The position numbers and the translations under genes are program-made. Below, piece after piece: positions 34,045-57,435 of a stretch of DNA of 64,000 nucleotides. The DNA comes from Octopus sinensis (Eukaryota): assembly GCF_006345805.1 (NCBI RefSeq), contig NW_021836291.1:124001-188000 (forward strand). The letters are read 5' to 3'. The notes beneath the pieces were generated by a model. The model was not told the origin of the DNA. It worked only from the letters and a program-made list of their open reading frames with translations, and searched no databases. Position 1 is the stretch's first letter. Each line of letters starts with the position of its first letter.

Positions 34045-36055
34045 TTACAGATAATCAATGTAAGCCTGCATTTCACTCTTTTTGACTCCCTAACCTCAAA
34101 AACTCAATTAGACCTTCATTTCGAGAATTCGCTCCAACTCGGCAACGGAGGGATCATCGATATGCTGACGATACGAGTTTACAAATTCTGGCGGATCAGC
34201 CTCCCCTGCGCTAATAATGATTTTAAGAATGAGTTCAGAACGACTCATTTTCTCGGTCACATAATTCATATAACTGACTATAACAAACCGACCAACCTAC
34301 TGGGAGGAGAACGCATGTGTAAGGCCCCCACAACTGGCATATGAAGGAGCGACACTTTTATGTTGTATGTATCCAACAAAAACTACTCAATATGTAGAAT
34401 AAATACCTGTTCTGCAGCTAGAGGGTCCACTTGTCTCAACTTGAATAAAGTTTGAGTGAATTCCTTAGCAAACGACCTTAAAGTGACCAAATATAACCCA
34501 CGTGACAAAATTATGGCAAAAATGAATGAAATATCTCATAGTATGGGCCAAATTAGAACGAACGTGAGGAATCCAACTGGAAATTGTCTGTTCAATTTGT
34601 GTGACATATTCAATCGAGTGAGGACCCATCATTTTGAGGGGACCACGACACAAAAAAGTCAAATCGTCCACCAAGAGTGCAATCCCCCTCTTCAAAATGC
34701 TAAAAATAACCCAAAAAGTTAATTCCTATCAAAAGACGCTTCAACTTGCAATCTATTCGCGGAATCCACACAAAATCCAGCAGTAGATATAACTATACAG
34801 ACTGTGGATATATCCCCAGCTGTTAGAGGATGTTCTACGGAAGGAAAAGCTTGTTGGAGATGACTTGCATATCGGTTGATGTACTTTTTGTAAATAGAAT
34901 GTTCAGGAATATTCCCCAAAGTGACAAAAAGTTGAGGAGCACTGGCCAAGACCTGTGTTTCCCCCACAAGAGATTTGTCTTCAATAAATGTCTCCATCAT
35001 CTCTTCCATGGTCTTATCAAGACTGGCCACGTATGCATCCATATGGGGGGTGATGGACAAAGTTATGATCCCTTTGAAGACATCCCCTCGTCCTCCGTTC
35101 AGTCTCTTTTCCAAAAGATCTTCCAATTTATAAAACTTTCCAAATTCAGCGAAATCCGTTTTTCCTTCAGCCAATGACTGTTCTAAGGACTTTCTGGTGA
35201 TTTGGCACAGTCTGAGAGCGATTTTGAACGAGACATGCCAGTGAAGGGGGAAAACCCCCTCAAAATCTCTCTCAAAATATGCCAAAGTCCGTTTTATGAG
35301 AGTAATGTTAGTTTTAATGTCCTCTGACATTTGTCCCTCGTATAAATCCCCAAAATATTCACAAATCGAGTCCAATAAACGTCCAATACGCTCTTCTCCC
35401 ATCGCAATCAAAGTATTGGAAGCCTCTGCCAAAAGTGGAAGACTTTCAGTGCCTTCAACAGTCTTAAAAAACAGCCGAATAATTCCCTCAGTCATTCCAT
35501 CCTGTGTTTTCTCCAATTGACCAATTAAATGTGCAATTTCGGGGACCTCTGATAAAATCCTCAGTTTGTGGACTACTACATTGAGAGCTGTCAGCATATC
35601 AGTAGCATGGGAGTATTCGGCTGTCTCAGAGAACTGTCTGTTGTTTATTAAGAAGGATTACTGGAGTGATTGTATCCCTTTCATTAGCATGTGGACTTTG
35701 TTGAGGGTTCCGATCGTTTCTGATAGATTTGTCTTGGCTATGTCGAGTTGTCTCATGTCTCCTGTTATTCTGCTTACTGTTTCTTCTGATTGAGTTGCTT
35801 TATCTTTGATTTCGTCTATTTTGGTTAAAAGTTCTTGCACGTTGTGAGTCAATCCTGCCCACCCACGTGTGGTTTCTGTGGATATTACTGAAAATATTTC
35901 TTTGTCGATGGCTTCAATTCTGCTATGGACAGAGGAGAGGACCGTCTCCAAGTTGCTTAGGGACTCCTCGGTGGGGAATAATTCATTTATATACGATATG
36001 ACATCAAAATCTTGTGCTTCTAGGGGTCCGTTTCCTCACATAAAAATGGATTCAT
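34045..36055 (-). CDS. VPS53: GARP/EARP subunit Vps53
   Basis: DPL..DFDVISYINELFPTEESLSN, AT.SEETV..IT.D.RQLDIAKTNL, FP.HW.V, AEQ|FLLD; needs +1 nt near 36025. Confidence 0.9.
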
Positions 36056-36199
36056 TTTACCACAACGATAATAATTTTAAGTAGGAATAAATAATTTTAT
36101 TTAAAAAATTGCTATGTAATATTTTTTTAATTCTAAGTATTAAACAAACAAATTTAGTTTATAATTTTTAATAAAACTGGGAGACTTGACTGAGTCAAC

Positions 36200-37530
36200 A
36201 AAAATCGCAAAAATTATTGTATGGCAACTAAGAAGAGAAAGGAGTTTTGTAGTCACAGAGATCAAAAATGAAAAAAGGAATTTATGTCAGAAATACATGA
36301 AAGTGTCAGTGAAATTGAGAGGATGGGATACGGAACGAAAATGTTCCGTGCTGTCCGCCTTTTGCAGAGAGGAGTGTAACCTAAGAATATTTGTATTCAC
36401 AACAGTCAAGGAAGGATGTATTTTTAATAAATAAAAACTGGGATTATTGTTGAATACTTTTCAAGCCTTTTAAACAAGAATGATACCTCGACCTTTGAAT
36501 TGTTTGACAAATCACCAAGAAGTCTGAAATATACAAAGGAAACTGACTTGGCAATTAAAAAATTAAACAACAACAGGGCACCTGGACCTGACAAAATACA
36601 TGGAGAAATGATCAAGTATGCACCAAGCGAATTGACAGCCATCATTACGAACATTTTCAATATTGGGGCACATTCACCTTTGAAACTTGGGGATGGAATG
36701 TTAATTCCTTTACATAAACCAGGAAAGAGCAAGGGTCTCCGCTAAAAATCTAAACCAGTGATACTACTACTAACGACACTGAGAAAAATTCTATCTCTGA
36801 TAACTCTTAATATCTTCTGATGTTTACGATTTTCTGTCGCCAGGAGAGAGTGGATTCAGAAGGAGTCGCTCGAATGCAGACGCTGTCTGGTCTCATAGAT
36901 GGATATGTGTCAACGATACAAAAATGACTTTAAAATTCTGGGAGTGGACATGTCCAGTTGCGTTTGACACTGTCAATAGGAATCATTGTTGAACGTTATT
37001 GGGAGTTTTCTTGATGAAGGTAGCACTAGGGCCGTCCAAATTAACTGTACGGGTTGGAAACGAGTTATCAAATCCTTTCGGGACAACAATTGGAACACCT
37101 CAGGGGGGACTCTCTATCTCCGGTTCTATTCATAGTATACCTGAAAGCAGCACATGAGAGATCTCAGAACAAAGTGCGAAGGCCGATGGAAATATATACT
37201 CCATATATACATAGATTGTGTCAGAAAATGATCAGGAATTGCATCGTGTACCATAGAGGCAGTAGTTACATAAAATGGACACGTTTCACAGCAAAAACAA
37301 CTACGCAATCTACTGCGCGCCGAGAATTGAAAAAAAAACTCCTAACAGAAAATTATACGCTATTACACAATCAATAGAGGCTTTTTGTTTAAACACGATA
37401 ATGGATGATTACTTTAACAATAACAAACAAAACACCGTTCAGAGGAAGGCCCAGGGTAACTCTCCCTGTTGCACTAAACAAGGATCTCAACGGAATTGGT
37501 AGAAAACTTGATTTGCTGACGACTTGAAGA
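36200..37530 (+). mobile_element. Decayed RTE-type LINE
   Basis: LNNNRAPGPDKIHGEMIKY, LIPLHKPGK, GDSLSPVLFIVYL, RGRPRVTLP. Confidence 0.8.
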
Positions 37531-37727
37531 CCTACGGTATTCTCAGAGCAGACCCCCCTGGTGACAAGATTTTTCTGAACGTGCGGCACAAACGGGACCT
37601 TAGTTAATTTAACATTTTTTTGGTTCTGTGTACGTGCTATTAATAATAATATTTTTTTAATTATAATTTATTTAATAATTTTTATTTTATTTTTATATAA
37701 TAAATTATTAATTCAAACGTTCACGTG

Positions 37728-39781
37728 ATGGTTTTATTTGATCTTCCTAATATCTATTCTAAGATTATTAGAATCCAAACCGAACACGGAACCAAACGAA
37801 TAATACTGAATTCTCAAGAAACCTACACAAACCTCTACTCTAAAGTGCTTCAATCTCCATTTCTAACTCAACAGGTAAGAAAAGAACTAAAAATCAACGG
37901 AGAAAACTGGCATCTCTATTTAGACCGACAAAAAACATCATTTCTGCCTGTTTCATCACAAGAAAACGTGTCTTCTCTAACGTAACTGTCCTCCTAACTG
38001 TTAGGAATGGCCAACTTCTTTTCCTTCTGCCACTTTCCGGGGTTCGTTTGACCCCAATTCCCGAACCAGAGAACTCAGAAGACCCCGTGGATGTCATTCT
38101 CTCCAAAACCGACGCTCGAATTTACAAAAACTCAAAATATTGTCTCCATTCGACTGGTCGTTGTATAAATTGTAACTACGTGGAGCCATTTGACACGGAA
38201 TATCTGTCAAATCTGTCCCCGCCAGTCAAATTCCTCTCATTCCACGCCTTTTTGCGGAAATTGACTTGCCAGTATGTCTAAAGTGTCATTAAACAGGGCG
38301 AATAAGGGCTCGGTGTGTCTGCCTGTCACGAAATGTAAGATTGACCAGTCCTGTCCCCTCCACAAGCCATATCCGGCCGGGATCTGTTCTCGGTGTCAGC
38401 CTGGGGCCATCACGTTGAATCGAGCAGGTTTGTTTTTATTTGAAATGTGTGTTTTGAAGGAGTATAGACATGTGGAGTTTGTTTCTTTCGAAAATGATAC
38501 AATGGTTCAGAGGTTTCTCCATTTTTGGAGGAAAACTGGAAATCAGAGGGCTGGAATTCTGTTTGGGAGGTATGAAGTGATGGAACAAGTTCCTTTGGGG
38601 ATTAAAGCAGTCGTAGTGGCCATTTATGAGCCTCCTCAAGTGATTGTTGTATTTTTGGAGGGTTTAGGTGTCCAGTCGTGATGGAATTGAGTTGTTGGAG
38701 GATTCTCGGGAAGAGAATATTCGGTGGATATCCGCCCAGTTGGGATTGGTCGTTGTTGGGTGGATTTTTACGGATTTGGTGTCAGCAGATTCGAGTGCTG
38801 GGACTGTAAAGCACTTTCGGGGGACTGATGTTGTTTGGTGTGTTTATATTGCTAGAAATCGTATTATTTGAGCTCACAGGAATGTATAACTGCGGCCTAT
38901 CATCAGAACAAGTATCCGAATCCATGTAAATTGGCCGACGGGGGTTATTATGGGTCAAAATTTGTGACAGTCGTGGCCACTGGTTGTTCTAATAGAAATA
39001 CTTGCAGGTGGTCAAGACATGCAAATCCATCTCGAGGCATACCAGGCTTCTGTGCAGTGTATGGCCTTGGTGAAGGAAGGACTGCTTGTGCCCACTATCG
39101 GGTGTTCTGGGATGTCATATGTGAAGGAATCAACCGACAATCAGTATGTCCCTGACGTATTTTATGTGGTCGGTTACTTGGGGTGGTAATGTCTAGAAAA
39201 CTGACTGTTATGGCAATAATGTAAAACAACTGGCCAGACCAGTACCCAACGAGTTCCTCATTACTGAGTTGGGAGTGGGAACTCCCAAGACCAATGTCTA
39301 TTCACTCCCTCTTGATGTTTCTAAAACATTTTATGCGATTGAAAACAGAGCTGACCATTTTGAAGCACAAGTTTTATTCTTTTTAGCTATTTTTTAGAAT
39401 TTGTTGAGTTTTGCGAAGTATTGGCAGCAGTTTGGGGACGATTCGTTTTTGGAGTGCATAGGAGACTTTCACGTGCTTGTTTTTCTCACTAGTTCTGAGT
39501 TTTCCTCACTTGATGTGGAATTATGCCGTTTTGATATTTAGACTTGTATTGGGGATTTGTTGGTGGCTGTGAGGGACGGGAATCGTGATTTGTTGTCGAG
39601 GATCCGTCACGGAATAGAAATGAGGTCGTTGATAGAGCTTGTGGGAGTTGCTATTGACTCTGGTTGGTGTTGAGGAGTCATTTCAGTGCATTCTGGTGAG
39701 GAGATTGCTTGTTCGAGATGTACGTTTATTAATGCAGGGGGATCATCTCGTTGTGAAATATGTGAATTTCCGCTCAATTGA
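37728..39781 (+). CDS. NPLOC4: Nuclear protein localization protein 4 (p97 cofactor), ~13 introns
   Basis: M|IIRIQ..GTKRI, HKPYPAGICSRCQP, AIYEPPQ, VGWIFTDL, GSKFVTVVATG, C-terminal NZF CSRCTFIN..CEIC. Confidence 0.95.
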
Positions 39782-39889
39782 TTCTATTTATTTACTTTCA
39801 TCTTTTAATTAGTTATTGATTTATTTATTTTGATGCGCCATTTAACGCGAGTGCAGTGGGTCAAATTAGTCTTAGTCTTGTTTATTTGC

Positions 39890-40320
39890 TATAAAATTGT
39901 GTTTTTTATAACAACTGTATATATTTAAGTTAATTGTAATTCCGTGATATTTTTTGGATTATGTGACCATACTTTGACTTTTGATTATTTCCAAAGATTT
40001 TCAATCGGATTTAGATCTGTGGACTGACTTGGCCATTCAAGGGTAATAACTAAATGTTCTTCTAGCCATTTCTTGAATTTTTTTGCACTATGTTTCGGAT
40101 TATTGTCCGGTTGAAATTTCTAATTCCCCACAATACCACATTTCTTAACTGACGAAAAAATATTTTTTTAATATCACAGTATATAGAGCCATTCAATATT
40201 CCGTTTATTACATGAAGTTTCCCGGGACCCCGAGAAGAAAAACACCCCACAGCATAATACTGCCACCGCCATGTTTAACTGTTGTCTCGTATTTTTGGGT
40301 GATATTCATCTTTTGATTTA
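39890..40320 (-). mobile_element. Tc1/mariner transposase remnant
   Basis: [39 protein letters not shown]. Confidence 0.85.
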
Positions 40321-40492
40321 CCTCACACGTAGCTTGTATAATTTTTCCCAAAAATTAACGACGTCCTCTCAATTAAAGAATTAATGACTGCTAATTAGAA
40401 AAATACTGACTATTGTTTAAAAAAATTACCCCTCCCAAAAAAATTTCTCCCCAAAAATTTCTATCTTTGTCGCATCTGACCAAATAATATTA

Positions 40493-42177
40493 CAGTTTTC
40501 CCTCTATTGCTCGCCATTTTTGAGACCAAGCCAAAATTGGATAGTAAAAAATAATCAATATCTGATCTTCTATCAAAAAAATTGTCTATAATTTTTAACT
40601 ACCTATTTGAATGATTCTAAACTTATAAATAAATGTCTAAAAGATTTATTAAAAAACCAAAATTTATTGCATTTTCATTAAACTTTCAAGCATATTCACA
40701 TTTAAATGATCATCATGTGAAAAATATTTTTTAAGGTCCGAAACACTTTTTATCGCGTCTAGATGTGTAATACATTTGTTTCTTTCACAATCTTCAATAA
40801 TTGAACTGTCTAAATTGTCATTTTCATCGTTATTGTTTTGTAGAAATTCATGAAGTTCGTCATTTTCAGAGTGCGTAAAGTCTATAAACTCCTCTTCTTT
40901 TATGGGATCTGAGATCATTAATTTATCTATAATTTGTTCGAAATTTTTTATTTTATGCTCTCCTTTAATAGGCTCTTCAATGCTTTTTTCCCATTTGACG
41001 TGCTAAAAACATTTTGATATTGTATCCACCGACACATTTTTTCAGGCAAAATAAGGAAATAAGACTCTATCTTTCAGCGTTATTTTTTTATACCATTCAA
41101 TATTTGCTTACCGTTATTTATTTTTTCGATTATATGTTTAAATTTAAATTTGTTGAAATGCGAGTGGAATGATCTAATCATTAGATTCTAATGATTCCTT
41201 GATCCATCGGTTGAATCACAGTAGTTGTGTTTTTTGGCAAATATAAAACTCCTATCATACCTAATTCAAATTTTATTTTATGAAAAGGACAATGGTCTAC
41301 TACCAAAAGTATCTTTCTTTGTTTTCGTTTGAAAGTTTTATTCCAATTATACAATCACTAAATATTTCCACGTTCATCCAAATCTTTGAAGAATTTGTGG
41401 TATTTTAAATACTCATCAACGTTCAAGTTTTTGAAACACTTTGTTCTCTTAAACTTTCCGATCATCAATGGGTTATTTTATCAGATCCAGTCATATTTGC
41501 GCAAGGCATTAATGAAAATCTGAAAATTGGCTAAGAAATGTTATACCTATCTTTAAGTAATTTTTGTCTTGGTCGGTGTTTCTTGCAGACACTTTTTGAT
41601 GGATTGGTCCGGTAAAATACGCCTGTTTCGTCGGCATTATAAACATTTTCGGAACCATATTCATTTATTTTCGAAGAGATAATTTTTTTAGTCTTCGATT
41701 TTGTCTTTGAACTTATTTCAGTATTTCCTAATTCACAAGGAAAAATTCTTAGTTTTATATTGTGCCTTTTTTGAACTTTTCGAGTTATTCTTTACTGGAT
41801 TTAAATTTGGCGAGACCGTTTAACGCATTAAATTTAGCTGCTTTAGATAAATTATCTCATCATTGAGACAAACTCCAACAGATTCCATGTAATCTATCCA
41901 GGTAATGATCTCAGAATTAATTGACAAATTTCTGAGTTTCGAAAAACGAGAACTTTTTCCGTAAATTGGATTAATTCCAAGAATCTTCTGTTTGTTTAAT
42001 TTAAGATCGTAAAATATATGAAAAGTTATTTTTTAAATAATAAATTGTAATTTTTTTAATACTAAAATGTGGCGAATAAGAGAATTTAGCGAACAATGGA
42101 ATTTCCTTAGTAAAAAGGCATTTTTCCCAAAAATGTGGCGACTTATAGAGAAATGGCGAGCAATAGAGAGTAAACTG
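40493..42177 (-). mobile_element. Tigger/pogo transposon, decayed, with both TIRs
   Basis: TA-flanked 27-bp TIRs CAGTTTTCCCTCTATTGCTCGCCATTT (2 mismatches); NADETG, LVVDHCPFH, PKNTTTVIQPMDQGII. Confidence 0.9.
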
Positions 42178-43033
42178 TATTTGAAAAGTTGTCATTTTGA
42201 GGTAAATTTTTTTAGCATATTTTAACCGTGGACGTGTTTTCTAGTAAGCAGCAGAACTTTACGTGGACGACATTTATGGAACTCTTTTATTCTTAAAGCA
42301 TTTGTACCAGTCTGTAAGCATACAAACGATCCTACTTTGCCCAAGTAAGTAGAGAGTTGTTAACGAGACAATTTCTGATTATTAAGTACTTTTCGTCTAT
42401 CTATGGAAATTAATCGAGATGATTTTTTTTCAGTTGTTTTAATCTTGGCGTATTTTTGGTATTTTTTAATAATTTCCATTTATTAAAAATGTTCCATACT
42501 GTACTTTTCGGAATATAAACATTTATGAGAAAACATTTTCTGAAACTTTTCGGATTGATTTTCCTTCATTATATTCAATAAGTATTTATGTCTTCTGAAT
42601 GTTCCTTTCGCATGTGCAAAATATTGATCGCAAATGATGTCAAGAATCGTTTAAATATACTAGTGATTCGAAATTAGTATAATTTAATGATCGATATGAA
42701 AATGAATCCAATTATTTTATCAAAAAATAAATAACCAACTGTTCAAAGACTAATTGGCACTTGATATTCCAGCTCTTGATGAAAAATTTTTCTATCTATT
42801 AAACTAATTTTTTAATGAAAACCAACCAATAATTACAAGTTAATTAATTAAAAGCTTCAAGTGCGGGAAGCCGACGCGATCGAGAAAGAATTAGAGCGTA
42901 CTATCGCAAGGGATATTTTTTAATGATTTATGATGTATATACATGTGCTGTGATCCCTCATCACATTTTGGTCACAATAAAGATTGGCTGATCCGTCAAC
43001 TGACTAAGAAAAAAAAAAAGTAACATACTACAA

Positions 43034-43144
43034 TTGAAAAACAACAACTATTCAGTTATTATGGGCTCGATGGATTGAAAGTATAGTCGAAAGTTGTACT
43101 CCGAAAGGCCTTTTTTGAAAAACAACAACTATTCAGTTATTATG
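43034..43144. repeat. 30-nt perfect direct repeat, 2 copies, 51-nt spacer
   Basis: TTGAAAAACAACAACTATTCAGTTATTATG at 43034-43063 and 43115-43144. Confidence 0.85.
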
Positions 43145-43447
43145 CACCACGCACGGTTGCAAATGTAACTACAGAGCTGTATTACAATAAACAAGCACAG
43201 TTCTACAAATTTGAATTATACATCACGTGGAAAAGGAAGGCTAAAGAAGACTGATTTTGATAACTAAGTCAAATAATTAAATCTAACTGATTCATTATTC
43301 CCATTATGGAATGTGCAAAAATATTGAAACACATATGTAGACAGTCACATGGACAAAGGCAAATATATTTACATGATAAGATTGAACTGCCTATTTATTT
43401 ACAATACTCTTATACCACTAGAAAATAACAAGAACAAATAATTTAAA

Positions 43448-45910
43448 TCACTTGGTTGGGAATAACTTGTTTGCTTCCTCCACGAAATTATTAGCAATAA
43501 GAATATCCCGAATTTTCCCTACACAGGCATCCCCCTCGTTGGTCTCCTTGGAGTAATAAACAGACCATACAATCCACTTGTAGAGAACTAACTCAGTCAC
43601 CTTCACTTTAGACATGCCCCCCTTCTTTAACATATCCGACAAATATTTGGCCACATCCTCCACGAATTTGAGTATTTCGATCAGTTTGGCTGCCTTGGGT
43701 GCCAACATGACTGCCGCCTTCTCCACCGTCGAACTCCGAATATAGGCGTCGTACTCCATCGACTGTTCTACACATTCCACTACTCCACCAACTCTGCTGA
43801 GGCACCTCACACTCCTCACTGATCACTGGGAGTTCCACAGCCTTCACTGCCGAAGGCTCATCGTTGGTGCTCATCTCCTTCATGTTCCTCACTATCGGCA
43901 ATATCTCCGTCTTAAACACATTCTATCATAAAATACGTGACAATACCTCCTCAGGAGATCCTCGCTGGCTTCCCGCTAATGAAAAAAAATTTCTAAGAAT
44001 GTCGACGTTGGACTTTGCTTTGGGCATTGTCTCACATGCATGCGTCTGCTGGTCCGCCATCAATCTGAACAGACACCACAATGTGGGAGTCTCCGTCGGA
44101 TTCCTGCCAGAACTGATATTCCGGCCTACCCGTCGTTCAGACTCTCCAATTCAGCTCGAATCAACTCAATGTTGTCTTGGCAGTACTTTTTGGCGTCGAC
44201 TATTACCTTTCTTTGACTTTACTACTCAAATCACACTTTTCCAGTTTTACGGAAGTGAACATATCCAACGGAAAACGGAGAGTATTTCCCGACTCAATAT
44301 TCTCACCATTTTTCTCCAATTTCTCCAAAACACTTCCAAAACTCTCAACTTGCGACATCCAATCACATTTTCTGCCACATTCAACTCACAATCAAACCTT
44401 TTTGACTCCGGGGGATCCTCATTTACAGTAAAATCAGGACATTTGTTATTCTTCCACGTATTCCACGACCTTTCATGTGACATTATGACCTTATAAACTA
44501 ACAAACAAATCATACATTCACAGCATTCGCAAAATCCTGGCCGTCCTGACCAGTTTGTCTGATCAAGGAGTAACATCGATCACAAGAACTTTCAATCCAC
44601 TCAGAATGTGGCTGTGGGGCAAAATTCTTCCTTCAAAAATAAACATAAAAATACGTTCCAGGACTCTTCTTGCGACACAGACGCAAATATTGGAAGAATA
44701 TTATAAATTGGACTAAAATATGTCTTCGGAAAATCACATCCGATATTTGTAGGGACATTAGCTGACATAGAAAAGGACTTTTACGTTTTCGGAAGTGAGG
44801 TATTTGACCACTTCCGACGTGAGGGTGTAGTGGACTGACTCCTCAAATAATTCGTTGGTGTCCTTCACGGCCTCGAAGGCGTCCAAAACATCGTCGGCAA
44901 TCTACGGTGATCCAATAGTCCCAACTCTGCGGAATCTATTCCATTCTTCCACATTCAAATCATTAATCAGACAGGATGAGGAAAAATATTTTTGAAGCGT
45001 CCAAAAATTCTGACAAAACTGAGAATTTATAAATTGGAGTCCCCTTTAGAGTAAAAAAACAAGGAAGAAAACACATTTTGGCATAATCCAACATTTCCCC
45101 ATCCTCCATTGACCCCACCTCATCATACAATCCATCATTCTACCATTTTTCACCCCAAAACTAACAAACCTGTAGAAGATTGACATCATTGACCACTGTA
45201 GAGATAGAAGTCTGTGGAATGTTGTAGAAATGACCCATCAAATTCACTCCTGACAGGTTAAGGACAGAGAACAACCAGATCTGTCACAAAGTGGCAAAAG
45301 TCTGGCCAAAAAAATTTGAATTCGAGCACAAAGTTCAGCATGGCAAACACGTGAAAGTCGACGGAGAAAATCTGGTGGTAAAAACACGGAAATACCGTTA
45401 CAAATAGGCTGGAGGGATTTTTGTGTGCTTAAAAACATTGGCTAATATATTTGGAATAAAAATGACTCACCGATTTCCAAATTTGGATATTTTTCTCAAG
45501 AAATGTGAAAATAACTTCACATCGGTCGATTGTGTGGCATTCGAGGACATCTCCGGAGAGTTTTAAAGGCAGAGCCGTCGAGCTGAGACCTCGTTCTGCC
45601 ACAACTAGACTTTTGTCCAGAATTTCGGTCAGTTTTGAGTCTTGGACGGAATTCTCTGACTATTCTGAGTAGTTTATTGTTTTTTTACCATGAGAGTTCC
45701 GAGAATGTTTATAAATGCTGTGTCCAGTACTACTTTTGTGTCCTTTACTCTTAAAATTAGTGATTTGAAAATACGATTGGTGGGGAATGTATGATGAGAG
45801 CACGAATTGTGAGGATAGTTGTTCTATTGAACAATTTGTAATAAAATTCTAATATTTTTATTATAAATAAAATTTACTTCTAGTTGTTTCAGAACATTGT
45901 GGATATCCAT
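43448..45910 (-). CDS. THOC1: THO complex subunit 1 (Hpr1)
   Basis: DVLECHTIDRCEVIFTFLEKN, CN|DFLRRLSR..LCARIQIFLARLLPLCDRS|GVNL, FW..QKYFS, ERSWNTWKNNKCPDF. Confidence 0.88.
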
Positions 45911-46039
45911 TAGACACACAACGAACCAAATGATTTAAACATGGCAATTTATTTAAATTATTATAAAATCTTATCACCTGAATTTATATTTAAAAAATGA
46001 ATTTTAATAAAATAACAACTGAAAAACGAAAACACATAA

Positions 46040-46708
46040 TTATTTAGACTTGACTGCCGCAAGCAATTTTGACTTGCTGGCACCTCGGAGACGTCCAGTC
46101 CTCCTCGCAGCAATAAGTCCAACTTTCCGTCCAGGAGGAGCATTACGACTAGTCGTGGAGGCCTTCCCAATATGCTGATGATTCCCACCACCAAACGGAT
46201 GTTCCGTAGGCTACAAATAACCACCATTTTCTCACATTCATAGCCACTCCTCTCACACGGGGCCAACACTTGCGTTTTTTCTTGTACTTCCAGCAAGCCC
46301 TCCCTGCCTTCAACAAAGGCTTTTCCAAACGTCCCCCGCCGGTCACAACTCCCACCACAGCTCGGTTTGTTGACGGAAATGTCTTTTTATGCCTGACGGT
46401 AATTTTATTCGAGTAGTCCGGGCCTCGACGTTGTGGGAAATGACTGTGCTGTACCCTCCCGATGCACGAGACAATTTTCCTCGATCTCCACACTTTTCCT
46501 CCAATGAACTAATAATAGTCCCCTCAGACATGGATCTTACTGGGAGGACATTCCCGATTGACAGAGAGGCTAAGTGGGGTCAGCCCAACTAGTCAACCCT
46601 TCACTCCGCAGTAAATGTGCTGGCCTGTGTAGAGGCCTTCTACTGCTGAGAAATGGTGAGATAGTCGACGGTATTTTTTTAGGTCTCTGAATTCGACTTT
46701 GGCAACAT
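46040..46708 (-). CDS. RPL8: 60S ribosomal protein L8 (uL2) lacking its N-terminal ~57 aa; 2 frameshifts (possible pseudogene)
   Basis: [41 protein letters not shown]|[28 protein letters not shown]; two introns retained. Confidence 0.85.
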
Positions 46709-46834
46709 GTTTTTGAATTTTTTAATAAAATTTTGATTCATGATCGAAAATTACAAATTTGTTAATTAATCAATAAAACATGTTATTTTCTGCAAGTTAT
46801 TATATCGTTCTGAAATATCTTTAAAAACGAGAAA

Positions 46835-47999: not shown

Positions 48000-49961
48000 T
48001 TATCTACGATATCGGTCCTTTCGCAGATTAAACCAGAGCTGAAATATATCATTCTGAAACTGACAACGATATCCATATTTCCACGACAATTCCCAGTCCT
48101 TATCCACAATCTTAAAGGCAATGTCCTACAAATAAGCCCACACGCCACCTCATAGGGAGGCCCCCCGGAAAACCTGAGAATATAAAAGTCACCGTCATCA
48201 CACGTTTTCTAAACTACACCAAACAACCCACCAATGAGAATGAGGGAGTCCTGTTCTTGTCAATCAAATCAGGATAGTATATCTACACACTAAAACAACA
48301 CAAATACATTAAATTTATATCCCTGAACTGTCTTGGGCGGGGGGTTCTCAGGGTCGTAGTGTGTCTGGTTGTACCGATTCCATTCAAACCCCATCAGCAT
48401 TCTGTTGAAAAAACGTGGTTTCCTCGGTCTGTATTTGTCCATCCACACCACATCCTGCTTCCCCAAGTCCACCTGAGTATCCAACACACATTCCTCGCTG
48501 TTCATTCCCTCTCGGGCTATCAAATCGAATTCCTGCTCTCTGTCCAGCTAGGAAATGCCTCTCATTTCAAAACCGTCATTTGTGCTATTTTCTGAACTTG
48601 AAGACGGGCTCCTGACAGTTTAATGGCATCCTCGTCCTCGTCCACCATGTTCAGAGGGTTCTCTTGGTCGAATCCAATCAGAATTGGGGAATACGACCCA
48701 TTTTCATACTCCTGTCTTGCAGTGGCCAAATGATCAGACTCTGCCTCACTCTCCTCTGACTCGACGACTTTATCCTCAATATCATATTCGGGGTCATTCT
48801 CTGTCATTTCCTTGTGCTTCTCGTCCAACGATGCCGCGGCAATGGCAACCTTCAGTCTCTTGGACAAAATCTCCCAAAAACCAATATCGACACCCTCTCC
48901 TCCCTTCAACTTGTCATTTACAAGTCTGTCAATATTTCTAAGCTCATCTGCCCCCTTTCCGTCGATTACTGTCCTCACTCTCTGTATTATGTCCTCTCCC
49001 ACTGCCCCCTCCATTCTATACCGACTCTCCTCTAAGGGTTACCCTCTCACTACAACCATCAGTCAGTCGTTTCTGATTGTCAGTTTGTCTATCTTTTATT
49101 AATACGATCATATCTTCCCAGAAATCAGCATTACTGCCCTTTTCGAGTGTCTTAACCACCCCAATGTCATATAACAGATCATCCAGACTCTCAATAGGGA
49201 GATTCTAGCCCTCAATAAACCTCTCTACAGAAATATAGTTATATGGATGTTCCAGTTTGACTGCTGACTTGACTCCACTGGCACACACAATGTAATTCCA
49301 CAACAAGTCAATGGGCATTGCCCGACCATTCTCCAGTCTTATTTTCATTCTGAGAGTTGCCTGTTGGAGTTGGAACTGGACATGGCTATGACTATAAATA
49401 CTTGTTCGTCACTGTTCTCCCACTCTGCGTGGTAGGCGGAATCCTTTTCTCTTTGAATCATCTCCTATTTCTTATTATTATGGACCATTCTTACCCAGGT
49501 GGTTGTCCGCTCTGTGTATTGTCGGTTTCGGAGTGCACGGGCCATTTTTAGTTCTTCTAGTTCTTTCTAGAATGTTCTAGAAGGATTTGTAGTACAGCCA
49601 TTAGTGCCATTTTCTCGGATTGTTCTTTTTCGAGTTGTTTGCGAGATAAGTGCAGTTTTCCTTCTTTTTCGAGTTTTTTGTGCCATATAAAATGGTGTCC
49701 TAGTTTATTGGGAATGTTAGACTTGTAAATTAGAATAGATAGTCCTACGTTGTTGATTAGGTGGTGTTTCCGTTCTTTAAATTCTTTTTTTGCTAAACGA
49801 CGGGCTTGTTTCTGTTGAGGGGTCTCGTTTGCTTTTATTTTGTTTTTGTGTTTTCTATGTTTTTAATTTATATGTTTTTAAAACCTCCAAGCTTTTTTGA
49901 GCATTTTTTTTGTTACATCTATATCATGTGAATATTCATCCGATCCAACTGATGACACCAT
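48000..49961 (-). CDS. CACTIN: Splicing factor cactin
   Basis: ETPQQKQARRLAKKE, W.DKYRPRKPRFFNR..GFEWNRYNQTHYD..NPPPKTVQGYKFN, C-terminal RYRR*. Confidence 0.95.
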
Positions 49962-50054
49962 AACGAATATAATTATAATTTATGTCTAATTTGAAAATTT
50001 TACTAATTAAAATCATTTAAATATTAAATTATATTATAATTGCTTTCATTTTAA

Positions 50055-51363
50055 ATGCATGTGGTATTCTTTATTGTCATCATTTTTTATAGGAAGAAAA
50101 TGATACTACTGAAGAGGGAGAACTATACTACGAAGAAGGTATGTCCGATAAAATTAAATAAAGGACTGAGGAAGGTCCGGCCATACTATTACACCCACAA
50201 AACAATTGCCAAGTTCAGGTGGATAGCTCAAAATATAACCGAGCTCTACAAAACAGAGTTTCAATACACTCATTCACAAATTGTATTTTTAATTTGCTTG
50301 AAAAGAACAGGAAAAAATGATTTCTTTAGGACTTTTACGTGTGAATGGCCAAATAGTAAATCCAGATTATATAATCAAAAAAGGAGACTATATAACAAAC
50401 AAAATCCATCGGTTTTTATTTTTTGGAAATATCAAAGACACGAACCCCCAACAGTTGCTCAAAAAGTTGAGATTGTGGAAGAAAATAAAGATTTTGTGGT
50501 CTGTAATAAGCCGGGATCAATCCCTATACATCCATGCGGGTTGTATCATTCAAATTCACTTATGCATATTTTGGAAGTAGAAAATGGATTTTTGGGCTTA
50601 AAAAGTACAAAAAATATTTATAATTTCCCAATGATATCCACAGGATTGATCGAGTTACTTCTGGGCTTGTTGTTTTGGCTAAAAATCCACAAACGACCAA
50701 AAAATTAAATAAAATATTTCAAAAAAGACAAATCCGCAAGGAATATTTGTGCATGGTTCGCGGAAAGTTTCCAGAGTTTATTTTTCCGTTTATTTTTCAT
50801 AGCGGTTTAATTAAGTGTGCTGAGAATATTTTCTGTTTTAGTCCTGCCACTGGACTTTGCTGTGTGGACAGGACTTTGGGCAAAGCGGCTTGCACTGTTT
50901 TTGAGTTTTTGTGGTACCACAAAGAGCATTCGATCGTGAAATGTGATTATGTCATTGTAGAACATTTAGGCACACCCAAAACTGGGAGGTCCCACCAAAT
51001 ACGAGTTCATTTACAATTTTTGGGGTTTCCAATTGTTAATGACTGGATTTATGGGAATGTTGCTGTTTTTGGAGAGAATTTGGGGGTTTCTGGTGTTTTT
51101 GACAAGGAAATTGTTGTAGAGGGTGATTTACAGTCTAGGTGGTCGAGAACTTTAAAAGAATGCAAAAATCGCTGGCAACTTTTGGTTCTGGGGGTCTTCT
51201 GTCAGTTTGTACGGAATGTTCTAGTCCATTGATGAACGAATTGTCCCCTTCGATATATTTGCATGCCTGGAAATACACTGTTTTGAATGTTGTGCTTAAT
51301 TTTGTGTAGTTTTTGGGGAATGAGTATATCTCTCCTATTCCTGATTGGGCTTCCAATATCTAA
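50055..51363 (+). CDS. RPUSD2: RluA-family pseudouridine synthase
   Basis: LRKVRPYY, HR|HEPP, NKPGSIPIHPCG, HRIDRVTSG, TGRSHQIRVHLQFLGFPIVND, IYLHAWKY. Confidence 0.9.
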
Positions 51364-53257
51364 TTATTTTTGTATTTGTACTTAAAATGTTCGAATTTAA
51401 TTTTTGGTTTTTCTGAGAATTCAAAGAATAAGTTATCTACGACTTAAAAAATATTCAACCCTAATAAAACCTGTCATTTATTTGAAATTGATAAATAAGA
51501 AAATTGGCATTGATATATGTTTGTGTTTAACAATTTACTACACTCAGTTCGTTTTACATTTCATAATTTATTAAAAGTAAGCAATCGGAGTAGGGTTATC
51601 TTGTTCTGAGCATCGCTGTTGACTGTAGAATAACTCATGAAACCGAAAAAGTTTAAATAATTAACAGATAACTAGTATGAGTCATACTATTAAATAATTT
51701 GACCAAAAATTTCTTGAAAATGGTTATAATATTTGAAGTGTTCAATTTTTATGCGGAAAAGTTCAATAATCTTACTAAAAATTATTTGTTTAAGTTCGTC
51801 TAAAGTTGTTTTTCTTCTACTACATTTGAACAACTTGTCTCGACAGTCGAAGAATACCCACGTGGATGTCGATTTCATTAGTAGTCTAAATCAGTTCAGA
51901 GACGGGCAAAGATCATACTATTTGGATAGTCATACTATTAAATGTTGGTACACCATATACATTGAAGTTAGCTTTCAGAAGGAGTGTTGACACACTATTG
52001 ATTGAGTCAGTGAAAAATTCGGTGAATTGCTTCAATAATTTAATTGAAAAGCAGAAGAGAAGCTTTTTTACTTTAAGTACAATCATTAGGGTACGCTTAA
52101 AACTGCAAAGAGGCAAACTGGCAGAACAAAACCAATGTCTAATCATCTAGTAATCTTTTTGTTTGTTTTAAATTTTAGTCTACGATAGATTTTCGCTGTT
52201 TTCTCCACCTCACAAGGCAATGATCCTAAGCTGGGGTTTGATTTTCATTCTTGTTGACATACCTCATCAAATCTAAGCTGAGAATATGAATTGAACACAT
52301 AAATTAGATTTGTAGAAATAATCTTGTTACATATTTTTCGTTATTTTTTGATTTTATCAACCAAGTTGAAATAGCTCAGCCTGCTTATAGATCTGTGGTC
52401 CTTTTGGGTCTACGCATTCCTTGCCAGATATGCCCTCCAGGAAACTCACCACGGCTGCAAAATCGATGGAAAGTCTCAAAATTTTACTTTTCTAGGATCG
52501 AGGTTAAGTATGGTCAAACTATGAAAGAACCAACTACTTCTGGTTGGAAAGGAGACTATCCAAATGTATGGACTGACCAAAGTGGACCAACAACTGCAGC
52601 TCAGTCTACAATGCACTATTCTACTCACAAAACTGTTGGAATAATTAATATTTGGTAAAGAAAAAATTGACCGTCTGTTGCCTAACGTCTGACAGGAGGG
52701 AGGTGTAACTTGATTATTCAGAGGGGGGTTAAGGACAGCACACATTTTTAATAATAATAGTCCTTATAAAATTAGGCCAGAATTGGAAATTAAGAAACAG
52801 ATATTTCCTATTTTGTATTTATAAAAACAAAAAAAAGACGAAAATTATAACGATTATAAACCAACAAAATTCATTATTTTCTTTTGCGGAGATTTAAATA
52901 CGTTTTACAATAATCATTTAAAAATTCAAATTGAAGACATCGAATATGTTTAGGTTAACTCATTTTGTCATAACTGGCATTCGAGCATAAAATTGATGGA
53001 TCATCAGGATCATATTAAAAATAAAAAGGCTAATTTTATAACTGTTTGGCAAAATATTTGTATTATTTCTATCTAATCTATTTTTATCAATTCACAAAAA
53101 AAAGGTCACGGAGCTTCAGCGGATAGAATAGAAAAATCGGACAGCGTATATTCTCAATTTTAATAAATCATAATTCAATTACGTATATAATTTCCAATTT
53201 TTGTTGTTTTAAAGAATAAATCAATTTATTAGTAAATAAGATAATCTCATTAGTATG

Positions 53258-53739
53258 TCAAGTTGTTTCCTCGTTTTTTTCGATTGTCAACACATCCGGT
53301 TTAACGCTTTCCTCTGTTTTTACGACTACAACTTTGTCCTCATTTTTCTATTTTTATATATTTGAAACAACCTGATTTTTCTGTCTTCTCTGAAGACATT
53401 GGACAATAGTTTCATTAGCTGTATGCAAGCCACTTTCCAATTTTTCGACTGCTTTAGCACTTCTGCTTGTTCTTGTACTTACATGATTTCCAGGAATGCT
53501 TTTAGGAAGATCCCACGTGCCAATATACGTACTCCACGAAAATTTGGAATCTCTTTTATTGTCTTTGAGATGTCCTCGATTATCAGCTATGATTTCAGTA
53601 AATCCGTCGAACGTTTTTAGATTCTAAAAAAACATATTTGGAAAACGACTTTTCTTGAATTAACAGGAATTTCCCAATTTCCAAGTCTCTTTGGTCGGTA
53701 TGCATCTTCATATTGCGAAGCATTAAAAATAATCGACAT
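53258..53739 (-). CDS. CFAP126: Flattop / CFAP126 ciliary protein (2 introns; not in the ORF track)
   Basis: Spliced MSIIFNASQYEDAYRPKRLGNWEIP..GFTEIIADNRGHL..WSTYIGTWDLP, matching the Flattop pattern ANQYE..L.NW..G.TQIIANDRGHL..GTW.MP. Confidence 0.85.
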
Positions 53740-54302
53740 CCAACGTTTCTATGGATATTGTAGTAATAAATATATTGACAATATATTTTCTTTTTTATTG
53801 TCAAATCAAGTCGAGAAATGATTGTGAATGAATTTATTAATTCAATTGCATATTTCAGTTGCTAGAAAAATTTATTTTAAAAATTACGGGGTTTTTAAAA
53901 CGGGTTTACGGACTTGTTTAATTTCTATTATAATTCTAGTCTACGAAAGTATTTTGCTGTCGAACTGAACTTTAGGGAGAGTATTGGTCAATTATTCCTT
54001 AAATAAATCACATTTTATTGACTCGAATTTGTCTTAAAATGAATAAGTCTAATTTATATCAAAAATACAACAGAAACAAAATTCATTTACGAAAAAAAGA
54101 GCCATGTTTGCAAAATTCAGTTTTTAATGTCTTAAAAATCCGAATTAGTTAATTATTTAAGCATTAAGAACAGAGTTGAGATTCAAAATCTATAACTAAG
54201 CAAGAAATTCGAAAATTTAACATTTTTATCTAAATGAAATACTCTTTAATAATTTTTTTTCTAAATAGAAGTTAATTAATCAGATGGGTTATGTTTATGG
54301 TA

Positions 54303-54420
54303 GATATGTAGCCTGGCGGATTGCCAAACTGTTTCCCCGGATGATGGCAATCGAGAACCGTTGCATTAGCCAGTTTGCCTCCCGAGGATCATGGGTGCGC
54401 ATTGAGATTTTGGCGCTGCT
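54303..54420 (-). mobile_element. CRE-like RLE retroelement 3' tail
   Basis: HDPREANWLMQRFSIAIIRGN; ~32 nt identical to 2580-2611. Confidence 0.7.
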
Positions 54421-54757
54421 TTAATAATTGTAATTAAATTTTTATCGCTAGAAAAATAAAATATAAAGAATAAACATAATTGGTCTGAATGTAAAAAAAC
54501 TCCCATCAAATTCGCCAATTTGATTATATATCTTTGGCCAATAAAATGTTTATTGTTCTTGTATTTATTAATTTTTGAACAAAACCGATAAACTCTGATT
54601 TTGTAAAAAAATAATACAAAATACTGCCCATCAATTAATTTATTAACTTTCTTGTTTCTGTTGAAAAAAAAACAAAAAAAATACTGCCCTATTTGGATCC
54701 CTAAAATAATAAGTCTTGAAATAATGATGACAAAATATGAACATATAAAGTAATAGA

Positions 54758-55290
54758 TTAATTTTCAAAAATTAATTTCTGACAGAATTTGACTTCGGTT
54801 ATTATAGAGTCCAATTTAGCAATATCAAGTTTAATATCCCTTTCGATAGTCTCAATTGCCTTAATGTTGCTGTCAAGTTGATCATCCGTTTGATCTGGAG
54901 AAGGCATCTGCAAAAATCCGTCAATTTCGATCATTTCTGTTTTGTCACAGATTGCCGAGGACAGGGTAAAATCGTCGGTTCCCCGATATTTCCAAAACGA
55001 ATAAATTTTCCACAAAAACGACATAAATACAGAACACTGACAAAGCCGACTGAAAATTTCGCGTACTAAAAAATTAGAAATTAGAATAAACAGTACATAT
55101 ATTAAACTGTCGTATTTTTAATGTATATACACACATATATACACATATAATCAATAAAAACTGGTGCGCTTACGCAAGCTAACAGATTTTTGTAAAATAA
55201 TTCAAAAAACTTACAAAATCGAAATAACAATATTTCAAGTAACCACATCGAAAAGATTAGATTTCCAAATATTTTATTGAGTAATCCCAT
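54758..55290 (-). CDS. Hypothetical protein (hydrophobic N-part, coiled C-part)
   Basis: Open frames and one intron-like GT..AG stretch; structure not resolved. Confidence 0.25.
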
Positions 55291-55726
55291 TGGAATATTA
55301 CAAATATTCGTTGCACGATTTTATATAGTCGAATTAGTCGAGATATTGTTCATTGAAATAAAACAATCAATTAACAATTCAATCATATTATCGAATATGT
55401 CTCAAATTTGGGTTAATTCATGAAAATTAATTTTAAATCTCTCCAGACAAATTTAAAAAAAATTTTCAAATTTCTTAAATGTCTGATTTATGACTATCCT
55501 GACTGGAAATTTTATAAATTATTTTAATTTTTGACGGATTTTAAATATTAGATTAAAAATGATGGCTTGGCCGAACAAGCAAACATTAATATATCGACTG
55601 ATATACTGAAATAAATTTTCCATTTAACTTTTAGTGTGAATTAAATAAATTCTATATAATTCATATCTATTTTATAAAATATCAATTTGTAATAAAATTA
55701 ATACGTATCACCATTAGGTTGTTTTA

Positions 55727-57435
55727 ATGTGCTTTTTTACCTTCGCACTATTCCTAATCTCGATACGGTCAGAAAACAACCAAAATGTATATTTCACTTC
55801 TAATTTCCAATTTAGCAAGTTTTTCCTCCTCCAAGATACCACTTTATCGAATCATTTGAAACATTCGACAGTGATAAATGGATTCCCTCAACGTCTTCAA
55901 AAACAGGATCTCCAGACATGAGATACACAGGCACATATTCCCTTAATATTCCCATCAGGTAAATTTTCCCTTCAAGAATCCGGACTGCTTATGGAGGTAA
56001 GAATCCCCTGATCTATTCTAGACTCCTTTAAGTCACCACGGATTGTCCTCTCGCCTGGAAACCCCTTTCGATTTCTCTACAACGGATGCCCTTTACTTTC
56101 AATTTGAATCTCACTGTCAAGTCAAACCAGACTGTGGTGGGTCATATATCAAACTTATATCCTCAAATGATCCTCTTGTACTTTTATAAAGTCATTTCTA
56201 GGACCAAATGGACGATTCGACCTCATTTTCCATAATGTTTGGGCCTGATACGTGTGGAGGAGTCTCCAAGGTGTCGGCTCTAGTTTTACTGTAGTTACAC
56301 TTTATAATCAATTTCCCAAACCCTATTTCTGGAGAAATGGAGGAGAAAGTATGTAAGGAAATCAGTTCATTCACCATCGATGAGCGGAGACATCTTTATA
56401 GACTAGAACTTCTCTCCAGTGGGGCTTTTAGCATCTCCGTTGATAACAAGGTTGTTTATAATGGCAGTCTTCTTACTGACATGAGGTAGTGGTCTCCTTT
56501 ATTTGAAGGCCTTCCATCAACCCGGATGAATTTATTCCCGACCCGACAGCAAGGAAACCACATGATTGGGATGAGAGAGAAGAGTTGGTGGTTGAGGTGA
56601 TTTTGTAGGGTGGTTGATGAGACTGTGGTGAAGCCTGATGATTGGTTTTGTGGGGTAAATGTATTCCAGGGATGAGGGAGGTGAGAGGATGATTCCTGAT
56701 ATGGATGCTGTCAAACCATCGGATTGGAACGATTCTGAGCCTTTGATGGTCCCTGACTATTCCGTGGATATACCTGAGGATTGGGACACTGATTTGGACG
56801 GTGACTGGGAGCCTCCGCTTATGGAAAACCCGAAATGTGTGCAGAAGAAATGCGGAGAGTGGAATAGACCATACAAGCCAAATCCCAACTACAAAGGACC
56901 TTGGAAACCTACATATAAAAAGAATCCGAATTACATGGTACTGGCATGTGACATTTCAGGGAGTGTGGGCCCCTCCAAATGTGAGTAATCCTGACTACTT
57001 TTATGAGGCATATCCATATCGCAAGTTATCCCCGATTGTATTGATGTGTTTGACATGTAGACTGCTGTGGCATTCGAGTTGTGGACTGTGGAGGCCAATG
57101 TTTTATTCGACAATATAATTCTTACAAGTGATTTGAATTCTCTGTTAAATTGGACTGCTCAGACTTTTGTTGTCCCATCGAAGCCTGTTTCGGTTGTTTT
57201 TGGTGTTAATTGGTAGGTTTATTTGCAGGCAGGGGTGAAGTATTTGTCTGATAAGTGGGCTCTCATTGGCTGTGTTCTCTGTGGATTGGTTGTCTTCTGG
57301 TTGTTTCTGAGGTGGATTCGTCCGTCCAGTACTCCAGTCGAGTCGAGTGAAGCAGAAGTGGTGGTGGAGGATGAAGTAGTCGAGCAGTCGGAGGTTGAAT
57401 CTGAGGAAGGATTACGTGAACGGAACACGAATTAA
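55727..57435 (+). CDS. CANX: Calnexin
   Basis: Signal peptide, DCGGSYIKL, IMFGPDTCG, P-domain repeats KP.DWD / GEW.RP..NP.YKGPW, FELWT, TM segment and acidic tail. Confidence 0.93.

What the first reader, a model, noticed from the sequence alone, without database searches (positions are those of the whole stretch)
34045..57435. Every gene carries a strand-composition polarity: A/C-rich 5' half, G/T-rich 3' half
Seen in sequence: sense strands start A/C-rich and end G/T-rich, and introns follow the trend. NPL4 intron 2 is gtgcttcaatctccatttctaactcaacag; its last intron is gttggtgttgaggagtcatttcag. Calnexin runs from gtatatttcacttctaatttccaatttag to gttgtttttggtgttaattggtag. RPUSD2, cactin, VPS53, THOC1, PDCD2L and ThrRS look the same. 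The pattern is its own reverse complement, so on the + strand each gene runs C/A to G/T whatever its orientation, and the skew resets at each AT-rich spacer. Inference: this resembles replichore skew at single-gene scale. Possible causes are replication origins at every spacer or gene centre, gene-sized amplified or circular DNA (somatic DNA amplification and circles have been reported in dicyemids), or convergent transcription-coupled mutation. Judged by eye, not computed.
Basis: partly seen in the sequence, partly recalled or inferred. Interest (0 to 1): 0.72.

Follow-up and report, generated by a model that had tools for sequence, protein, structure and literature searches.

The report
Gene-end strand skews in tiny parasite
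In this tiny-intron animal, likely a dicyemid parasite sequenced along with its mollusc host, most genes are A/C-rich over their first ~500 bases and G/T-rich over their last few hundred, even in introns and silent codon sites, which likely records transcription-linked mutation, as already described for fungi, rather than gene-sized replication units or circles.

Summary
In 294 gene models from 1.86 Mb of seven contigs, sense-strand intron GC skew runs from -0.10 to +0.33 and 4-fold-site keto skew from -0.13 to +0.11. 220 of 294 genes rise 5' to 3'; 126 are individually significant and 10 are significantly reversed. The shape is two fixed end zones (about 500 nt at the 5' end, 250-550 nt at the 3' end) around a plateau, not a central step. 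It stops at the transcription unit: no mirror lobe in flanks, no effect of neighbour orientation, flat DNA contig depth, no circle joints listed. Origins at spacers or gene centres and gene-sized circles are therefore not supported. Best reading (0.6): transcription-phase-specific germ-line mutation, with C and A lost from whichever strand is exposed. The closest known case is the opposite 5'/3' GC skew of fungal genes (PMC3315797). Here T/A moves in parallel, promoters are unskewed, and the organism is an animal. The scan noted this before on other contigs of this genome. A minority class of GC-rich genes has a strong purine-to-pyrimidine step instead.

The parts
34045..36055 (-). VPS53, 7 modelled introns; neutral-site keto skew -0.22 (5' half) to +0.28 (3' half)
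   Evidence: Pfam Vps53_N; model; skew; p<0.002
37728..39760 (+). NPL4; introns go from C/A-rich (37845-37874, 37982-38004) to G/T-rich (38640 onward)
   Evidence: Pfam zf-NPL4/NPL4; spliced contigs of X1; intron list
43448..45910 (-). THOC1, 18 modelled introns; intron keto skew about -0.7..0 at the 5' end to +0.6 later
   Evidence: Pfam efThoc1
46040..46531 (-). RPL8/uL2-like gene (short model, 5' end uncertain); follows the pattern
   Evidence: Pfam Ribosomal_L2_C; p 0.002
48000..49904 (-). Cactin; strongest amplitude in the window (0.93); first three introns K -0.33 to -0.44, last three +0.67 to +0.89
   Evidence: Pfam Cactin_mid
50055..51363 (+). RPUSD2-like pseudouridine synthase, split into two models; whole span rises K -0.10, +0.10, +0.21
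   Evidence: Pfam PseudoU_synth_2
53258..53739 (-). Short 2-intron gene that does NOT follow the pattern (exception inside the finding)
   Evidence: p 0.96; spliced in X1 and X5
55727..57435 (+). Calnexin, 11 introns confirmed by spliced contigs; neutral GC skew -0.31 to +0.47
   Evidence: Pfam Calreticulin
40100..43300 (.). Repeat-derived spacer without the A/C-to-G/T gene pattern; spacers as a class show no mirror lobe
   Evidence: high repeat depth; class test
5840..6564 (+). Adenylate kinase, outside the stated coordinates; strong pattern
10248..12564 (+). Threonyl-tRNA synthetase-like gene, outside the stated coordinates; follows moderately
   Evidence: p 0.014
61868..64000 (-). eIF3c (runs past the window end); strong pattern
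20726..21838 (+). Coproporphyrinogen oxidase copy 1: exception, G-rich start (leans to the reversed-GC class)
28809..29920 (+). Coproporphyrinogen oxidase copy 2: same exception

Best explanation
The skew is likely the footprint of germ-line mutation whose strand bias changes with the phase of transcription: C and A are likely lost from whichever strand is left exposed. SHOWN: the skew is confined to the transcription unit. It has an A/C zone of about 500 nt after the ATG, a plateau (near zero at 4-fold sites, G/T-leaning in introns), and a stronger G/T zone over the last 250-550 nt that fades 100-200 nt past the stop. It is strongest at introns and silent sites, independent of flanking bases, shared between the introns and exons of one gene, and larger in core housekeeping genes. 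INFERRED: in the body and the termination zone the non-template (sense) strand is exposed or left unrepaired, the usual transcription-associated bias, which gives G>C and T>A. INFERRED, weaker: in the first ~500 nt the bias reverses because the template strand is the exposed or less-repaired one, through antisense transcripts/R-loops or an initiation-phase repair regime. The amino-acid shift (Q, K, N, I, E, T at the N-terminus; V, W, C, M, A, F at the C-terminus) is likely a by-product.
For: Gradient at neutral sites on both strands; intron keto skew rises in all 7 contigs. End-zone model is best in gene-level cross-validation, also in the 64 genes >=1.8 kb (216 vs 165 vs 100). Upstream flank skew is about 0 out to 3 kb and downstream skew fades within about 100-200 nt. 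No dependence on divergent, tandem or convergent neighbours or on spacer length. Intron skew follows distance, not intron rank. All 5' and 3' base contexts shift alike; no CpG or TpC signature. Amplitude is over-dispersed among genes (SD 0.28 vs 0.16 expected); intron and 4-fold amplitudes correlate (rho 0.43); 5', middle and 3' effects covary. Core genes 0.34 (n=34, window genes removed) vs 0.19-0.22, p 0.015. Retroelement models 0.02 (n=3). Precedent: three-regime skew in fungi (PMC3315797); exposed strands lose C and A at human break sites (PMC7615360 passages); end-specific skews from substitution bias in vertebrates (PMC2927911 passages).
Against: No mutation rates were measured; everything rests on composition. 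Expression was not measured. The housekeeping contrast may partly reflect better gene models, and core vs other Pfam-matched genes is not significant (p 0.13). A sign reversal at the 5' end is not what non-template exposure predicts and needs an added assumption. The two end zones are nearly equal and opposite (-0.49 and +0.45 logits), which a symmetric gene-edge process explains more simply. The 3' G>C excess at 4-fold sites vanishes >60 nt from splice junctions (-0.01 vs +0.12/+0.13), which hints at a splicing or RNA component. The 21 repeat-covered models show a weak TA rise (0.00 to +0.15). 13 of 294 genes have a reversed GC slope.
Confidence: 0.6

Rival explanations
1. Selection on nascent RNA or transcription kinetics: an A/C-rich start (low structure, few R-loops, a slow-to-fast ramp) and a G/U-rich end that aids pausing, splicing of tiny introns and 3'-end formation.
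For: Strictly transcript-bound. 3' G excess at 4-fold sites only near splice junctions. Proposed as the adaptive alternative in PMC3315797.
Against: Hundreds of weakly constrained sites shift in a context-free way. 5' and 3' zones of one gene pair no better than zones of different genes (120 genes, p 0.79). The CTP-ramp idea does not predict the parallel A/T shift.
Confidence: 0.17
2. Breaks, nicks or replication starts at both gene edges expose about 500 nt of single strand (template strand at the promoter end, sense strand at the terminator end).
For: The direction matches loss of C and A on 3'-overhang strands (PMC7615360 passages). Fixed length scale and near mirror amplitudes.
Against: No mirror lobe outside genes. 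Unique flanks of the 98 highest-amplitude genes are at about 0 upstream. Repeat copies 100-800 nt from gene edges show keto asymmetry +0.005 to +0.036 (each +-0.02) on both sides, the wrong sign on the right-hand side. No clear boost from close neighbours. It survives only if processing is one-sided or flanks turn over very fast.
Confidence: 0.12
3. Gene-sized amplified, linear or circular DNA units with replichore-like skew, or origins at gene centres.
For: Chromatin elimination, circles and selective amplification are reported for dicyemids (PMC6543705 passages). The skew is confined to genes.
Against: The central step is the worst position model. DNA contigs of X2 bridge genes and spacers at depth 43-56, including 5.4 kb across several gene models, with no joints in L012. 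The 5' zone starts at the ATG, not upstream of the promoter. Somatic copies are not inherited. The circles described are mostly about 700 bp and non-coding or mitochondrial (PMC6543705).
Confidence: 0.04
4. Annotation or amino-acid artefact.
For: The gene models come from my own self-trained finder; some are split, merged or miss an intron.
Against: Spliced contigs match the modelled introns. The effect is larger at introns and third positions than at first and second positions. Mis-called ends would give zero, not negative, skew.
Confidence: 0.02

Closest known systems
[quoted passage not shown]
   Same: C-rich 5' ramp, plateau, G-rich 3' ramp; present at 4-fold sites; shifts terminal amino-acid use; runs into the 3' UTR; in many but not all genes.
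   Different: In fungi AT skew is flat and GC skew is strongest in the promoter/5' UTR. Here T/A rises in parallel with G/C (keto skew), the upstream flank is unskewed, introns carry the largest signal, and the organism is an animal.
C>G skew at transcription starts of plants and fungi (Fujimori et al. 2005, PMC555766; abstract only)
   Same: C-rich sense strand at the 5' end, stronger in highly expressed genes.
   Different: A peak around the TSS. Here a ~500-nt zone inside the gene, with A>T at silent sites and a 3' counterpart.
Transcription-associated substitution bias in vertebrates and Drosophila (PMC2927911, PMC5786239; passages)
   Same: Transcript-bound skews at neutral sites; vertebrate GC skew also differs in sign between the two gene ends.
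   Different: Vertebrate polarity is the reverse (G-rich 5', C-rich or zero 3') and about 0.1 or less. Drosophila intron skews are 1-8%, and no position dependence appeared in the passages read. Here intron GC skew spans about -0.3 to +0.45.
Mirror asymmetry around replication origins/CpG islands and meiotic break hotspots (PMC2817419 abstract; PMC7615360 passages)
   Same: Reverse-complement-symmetric; C and A lost from the exposed strand gives the same keto direction.
   Different: Those are two-sided around a site and reach into intergenic DNA. Here there is no lobe outside the gene.

Membership tests
Fungal-type opposite 5'/3' gene skew | Coding strand C-rich at 5' end, G-rich at 3' end | tested here: met
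   intron GC skew -0.10 to +0.33; 4-fold -0.22 to +0.03/+0.07
Fungal-type opposite 5'/3' gene skew | Three regimes: 5' ramp, plateau, 3' ramp | tested here: met
Fungal-type opposite 5'/3' gene skew | Seen at 4-fold sites and in terminal amino-acid use | tested here: met
Fungal-type opposite 5'/3' gene skew | Extends into the 3' UTR | tested here: met
   positive for 100-200 nt past the stop
Fungal-type opposite 5'/3' gene skew | Strongest negative skew in the promoter/5' UTR | tested here: not met
   upstream GC skew between -0.06 and +0.05 (down to -0.13 in close divergent pairs) vs -0.2 to -0.3 inside
Fungal-type opposite 5'/3' gene skew | AT skew flat along the gene | tested here: not met
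   TA skew -0.08 to +0.17 at 4-fold sites, +0.05 to +0.37 in introns
Fungal-type opposite 5'/3' gene skew | Correlation with expression | tested here: inconclusive
   housekeeping proxy only, p 0.015 overall and 0.13 vs other Pfam-matched genes; contig depth cannot rank genes
Replication-origin (replichore/N-domain/CGI) skew | Mirror-image lobes on both sides of the origin, including intergenic DNA | tested here: not met
Replication-origin (replichore/N-domain/CGI) skew | Step at a gene-centre origin, or gradient scaling with unit length | tested here: not met
   step dLL 260, linear 337, end zones 385
Replication-origin (replichore/N-domain/CGI) skew | Mapped origins or fork polarity | not testable with these tools
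   needs OK-seq or SNS-seq
Break-hotspot single-strand mutagenesis | Exposed strand loses C and A | tested here: inconclusive
   direction of composition fits; no mutation spectrum available
Break-hotspot single-strand mutagenesis | Two-sided asymmetry around the break | tested here: not met
   (main class); the minority purine-to-pyrimidine class is two-sided inside genes
Gene-sized amplified or circular DNA | Coverage steps or circle junctions at gene edges | tested here: not met
   contigs only, rare molecules invisible, 29 of 44 joints not shown

The most novel reading that the evidence does not exclude
This animal exposes about 500 nt of single-stranded DNA inward from both edges of every germ-line-active gene (one-sided nicks or breaks, or gene-sized amplicon ends feeding back into the germ line). 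That would leave mirror-image scars only inside transcription units, while a second, GC-rich gene class carries intragenic break hotspots with a purine-to-pyrimidine step.
Probability: 0.12. Interest if true: 0.8.

Novelty: new variant of a known kind. Interest (0 to 1): 0.42.

Why it matters
It shows an animal genome with a large, fungal-like, position-dependent strand bias inside genes, carried by both G/C and T/A. Tiny introns every ~200 nt give neutral reporters along the whole gene, which fungi mostly lack. That makes the open mutation-versus-selection question of PMC3315797 directly testable with population data. The bias shifts amino-acid use between protein ends (5'/3' ratios 0.84 to 1.24), which may matter for placing these long-branch animals in trees. 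It does not reveal gene-sized replicons. The large host assembly also holds megabases of the parasite's genome as extra contigs.

Tried and rejected
Central-step and length-scaled models fit worse. Mirror lobes in unique flanks and in repeat-copy substitutions: none. Neighbour orientation and spacer length: no clear effect; close divergent pairs are slightly more negative at the 5' end, about 1.5 SD. CpG or TpC context: none. Intron rank: no effect beyond distance. Cognate 5'/3' RNA pairing: none. Nucleosome-scale periodicity from the ATG: none visible by eye in 20-nt bins. Substitution spectrum from laid contigs: tables show only 40 rows and are unpolarised, so not used. No RNA holder was listed, although X1, X3, X4 and X5 contigs are spliced. 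The homolog search with the VPS53 exon found nothing. The beta-tubulin search gave animal hits but no dicyemid name. UVSSA was found only on a host chromosome while XPA also hit a small contig: too insensitive to claim loss of transcription-coupled repair. Touchon 2004 and Aerts 2004 are not held and are known here only through other papers' citations. The hotspot purine-skew search returned 0 papers. No supplements were read; the supplement of PMC3315797 (skew by codon position) could bear on the comparison.
Full report
What the DNA is. The window is G000:C12762:124001-188000 in a 2.72-Gb assembly of 13,516 contigs. Molluscan haemocyanin lies on chromosome-scale contigs, so the main organism is a mollusc. 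C12762 (483 kb) is unlike a large animal genome: 36.6% GC, gene-dense, median intron 26 nt, 6.5 introns per gene, mean coding length 1143 nt. Published Dicyema figures are 36.7% GC, 6.2 introns per gene and 1155 nt (PMC6736024, passages), with a median intron of 27 nt (PMC6543705, passages). Among animals only dicyemids and myxobolids are reported with such introns (PMC13644364, passages). A beta-tubulin exon from a sister contig is 95% identical to animal tubulins, and intermediate-filament and cilia (CFAP96) domains occur. One DNA run of the same sample holds these contigs and another does not. A co-sequenced dicyemid is therefore likely; this is an inference, not a named match.

Data. A LINE-like element at window 58-59 kb has many 98-100% identical copies on other contigs (41 matches listed). 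I used them to choose six sister contigs and fetched 1.794 Mb, 1.86 Mb with the window. A self-trained gene finder gave 508 models. I kept 294 with at least 2 short introns, at least 100 codons, under 20% repeat cover and no long intron; 214 were dropped before counting. Of the 226 kept models of 700 nt or more, one exon each was scanned with Pfam; 3 proved to be retroelement ORFs and were left in the counts. Spliced contigs fit the models: calnexin shows 272 gap letters, the sum of its 11 modelled introns.

Observation. On the sense strand, from first to last tenth of the gene, intron GC skew goes from -0.10 to +0.33 and TA skew from +0.05 to +0.37. At 4-fold sites GC skew goes from -0.22 to +0.03 (peak +0.07) and TA from -0.08 to +0.17. 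First and second codon positions move only about 0.1 in keto skew. Both strands agree. Intron keto skew rises in all seven contigs; 4-fold skew is weak on C12463. 220 of 294 genes have a more G/T-rich 3' half (p 1.5e-20). By permutation, 126 of 294 are significant and 10 are reversed. Six of nine models in the finding's coordinates are significant at p <= 0.002, and one gene (53258-53739) is a clear exception. The window is above average (0.53 vs 0.22). Amino acids follow: Q, K, N, I, E, T are enriched near N-termini and V, W, C, M, A, F near C-termini.

Shape. Long genes have a plateau. Fixed end zones (sigmoid edge near 460-620 nt from the ATG; 3' decay 250-470 nt in introns, longer at 4-fold sites) beat a linear gradient and a central step. 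This holds in gene-level cross-validation: 385, 337 and 260 log-likelihood units, and 216, 165 and 100 in the 64 genes of 1.8 kb or more. The end-zone model wins over the linear one in only 164 of 294 single genes. The zones are nearly equal and opposite (-0.49 and +0.45). Intron skew tracks distance, not intron rank, and every flanking-base context shifts alike.

Boundaries. Upstream of the ATG, skew is about zero out to 3 kb. Downstream of the stop it fades within 100-200 nt, also in strictly unique flanks of the 98 strongest genes. Divergent, tandem, convergent, close and isolated genes look alike. Repeat copies 100-800 nt from gene edges, compared pairwise with copies far from genes, show keto asymmetry of +0.005 to +0.036 (each +-0.02) on both sides. 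An origin or break at the edge predicts opposite signs, at most about 0.1 by my estimate. DNA contigs bridge genes and spacers at depth 43-56, and L012 shows no joints. One search showed only 15 of 44 joints, mostly in repeats, and contigs hide rare molecules.

Gene-to-gene variation. Amplitude varies more than sampling allows (SD 0.28 vs 0.16) and is shared by the introns and 4-fold sites of a gene (rho 0.43). The 5', middle and 3' effects covary. Genes without a paralogue in the sample score 0.26 (n=186) and gene-family members 0.09-0.13 (n=40). Core housekeeping genes, which I classed from Pfam names, score 0.34 (n=34 without window genes) against 0.19 (no Pfam hit, n=148) and 0.22 (other Pfam, n=31); p is 0.015 overall but 0.13 against the other-Pfam class. 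Model quality may contribute. The 5' and 3' zones of one gene do not pair better than those of different genes (first 120 models of 900 nt or more, p 0.79).

Mechanism. G>C together with T>A is what loss of C and A from an exposed strand gives (PMC7615360, passages, for resected DNA; PMC2927911, passages, for A>G and C>T on the non-template strand of mammals). The body and 3' zone thus fit ordinary non-template exposure, stronger where the polymerase terminates (inferred). The 5' zone needs the reverse bias. Antisense R-loops or an initiation-phase repair regime are candidates; yeast has a distinct TSS-proximal repair mode (PMC11266705, passages), and UVSSA was seen only on a host chromosome, a weak hint. 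I put phase-specific transcription-linked mutation at 0.6, RNA-level selection at 0.17, one-sided gene-edge breaks or origins at 0.12, and gene-sized amplicons or central origins at 0.04. Results against the favoured reading: the near symmetry of the two zones, the loss of the 3' G excess far from splice junctions, and a weak TA rise in 21 repeat-covered models.

A second class. Prompted by earlier notes of this scan, I found 13 of 294 genes with a reversed GC slope, about six of them strong and mostly GC-rich. An inositol-phosphate synthase gene on C12463 (97.3-99.0 kb) goes from GC skew +0.8 to -0.7 in one internal step, with A-rich to T-rich alongside. That is a purine-to-pyrimidine step, two-sided around a site inside the gene, and looks more like a break hotspot (inference). 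The window's CPOX pair leans this way.

Known or new. McLean and Tirosh 2011 (PMC3315797; parts 1-3 of 4 read, the whole main text) describe the same C-rich start, plateau and G-rich end in fungi. Two of their features fail here: AT skew is not flat, and the promoter is not the most skewed part. I therefore file this as a variant that works like theirs, not as a member. Vertebrates have end-specific skews of opposite polarity and smaller size. Searches for a dicyemid or other animal report of this polarity found none ('skew' occurs 0 times in PMC6736024 and PMC6543705), but the library lacks most subscription papers, including Touchon 2004 and Aerts 2004. The scan's own notes reached the same reading on other contigs of this genome; that is not independent support.

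Verdict: real, seen on all seven contigs sampled and strong; not every gene; not replichores or circles; a new variant of a known kind; interest 0.42.

Noticed in passing
G000:C12463:97343-98991 (L144), C7755:320519-321654 (L053), C9300:223700-225057 (L133), C12463:~150.7-153.5 kb (L150): Minority class of GC-rich genes with a strong internal purine-to-pyrimidine step (GC skew up to +0.9 then -0.8), introns included, confined to the gene; resembles a break/recombination hotspot scar.
   Followed up: partly
window 20726-21838 and 28809-29920: Two copies of coproporphyrinogen III oxidase 8 kb apart; both start G/A-rich and lack the usual C-rich start.
   Followed up: partly
window 57862-59541 (-): Young LINE-like retroelement with dozens of 98-100% identical copies on other small contigs; over all bases it also drifts from A/C-rich towards neutral along its sense strand (K -0.17, -0.04, +0.01).
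   Followed up: partly
G000 contigs C12762, C7755, C2502, C12462, C9300, C12463, C8460 and about 30 others listed: Megabases of a second animal's genome sit in the host assembly as separate contigs; the seven fetched from are 0.37-0.85 Mb long.
   Followed up: partly
G000:C14 (UVSSA), C12 and C9497 (XPA): UVSSA domains hit only a host chromosome while XPA also hits a small contig: weak hint that the parasite lacks UVSSA.
   Followed up: partly
window 46040-46720 (-): The RPL8/uL2-like gene is short, and laid contigs differ at about 8% of sites, suggesting a diverged or truncated paralogue of another expressed copy.
   Followed up: no
window 31304-33622 (-): Cys-rich gene with 13 tiny introns and a hydrophobic N-terminus, no Pfam hit in the exon scanned, no skew gradient.
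   Followed up: no
window 55931-55958 and 46449-46424: Modelled GC-AG tiny introns (calnexin intron 2, supported by the total gap count of the spliced contig; RPL8-like one unconfirmed).
   Followed up: no
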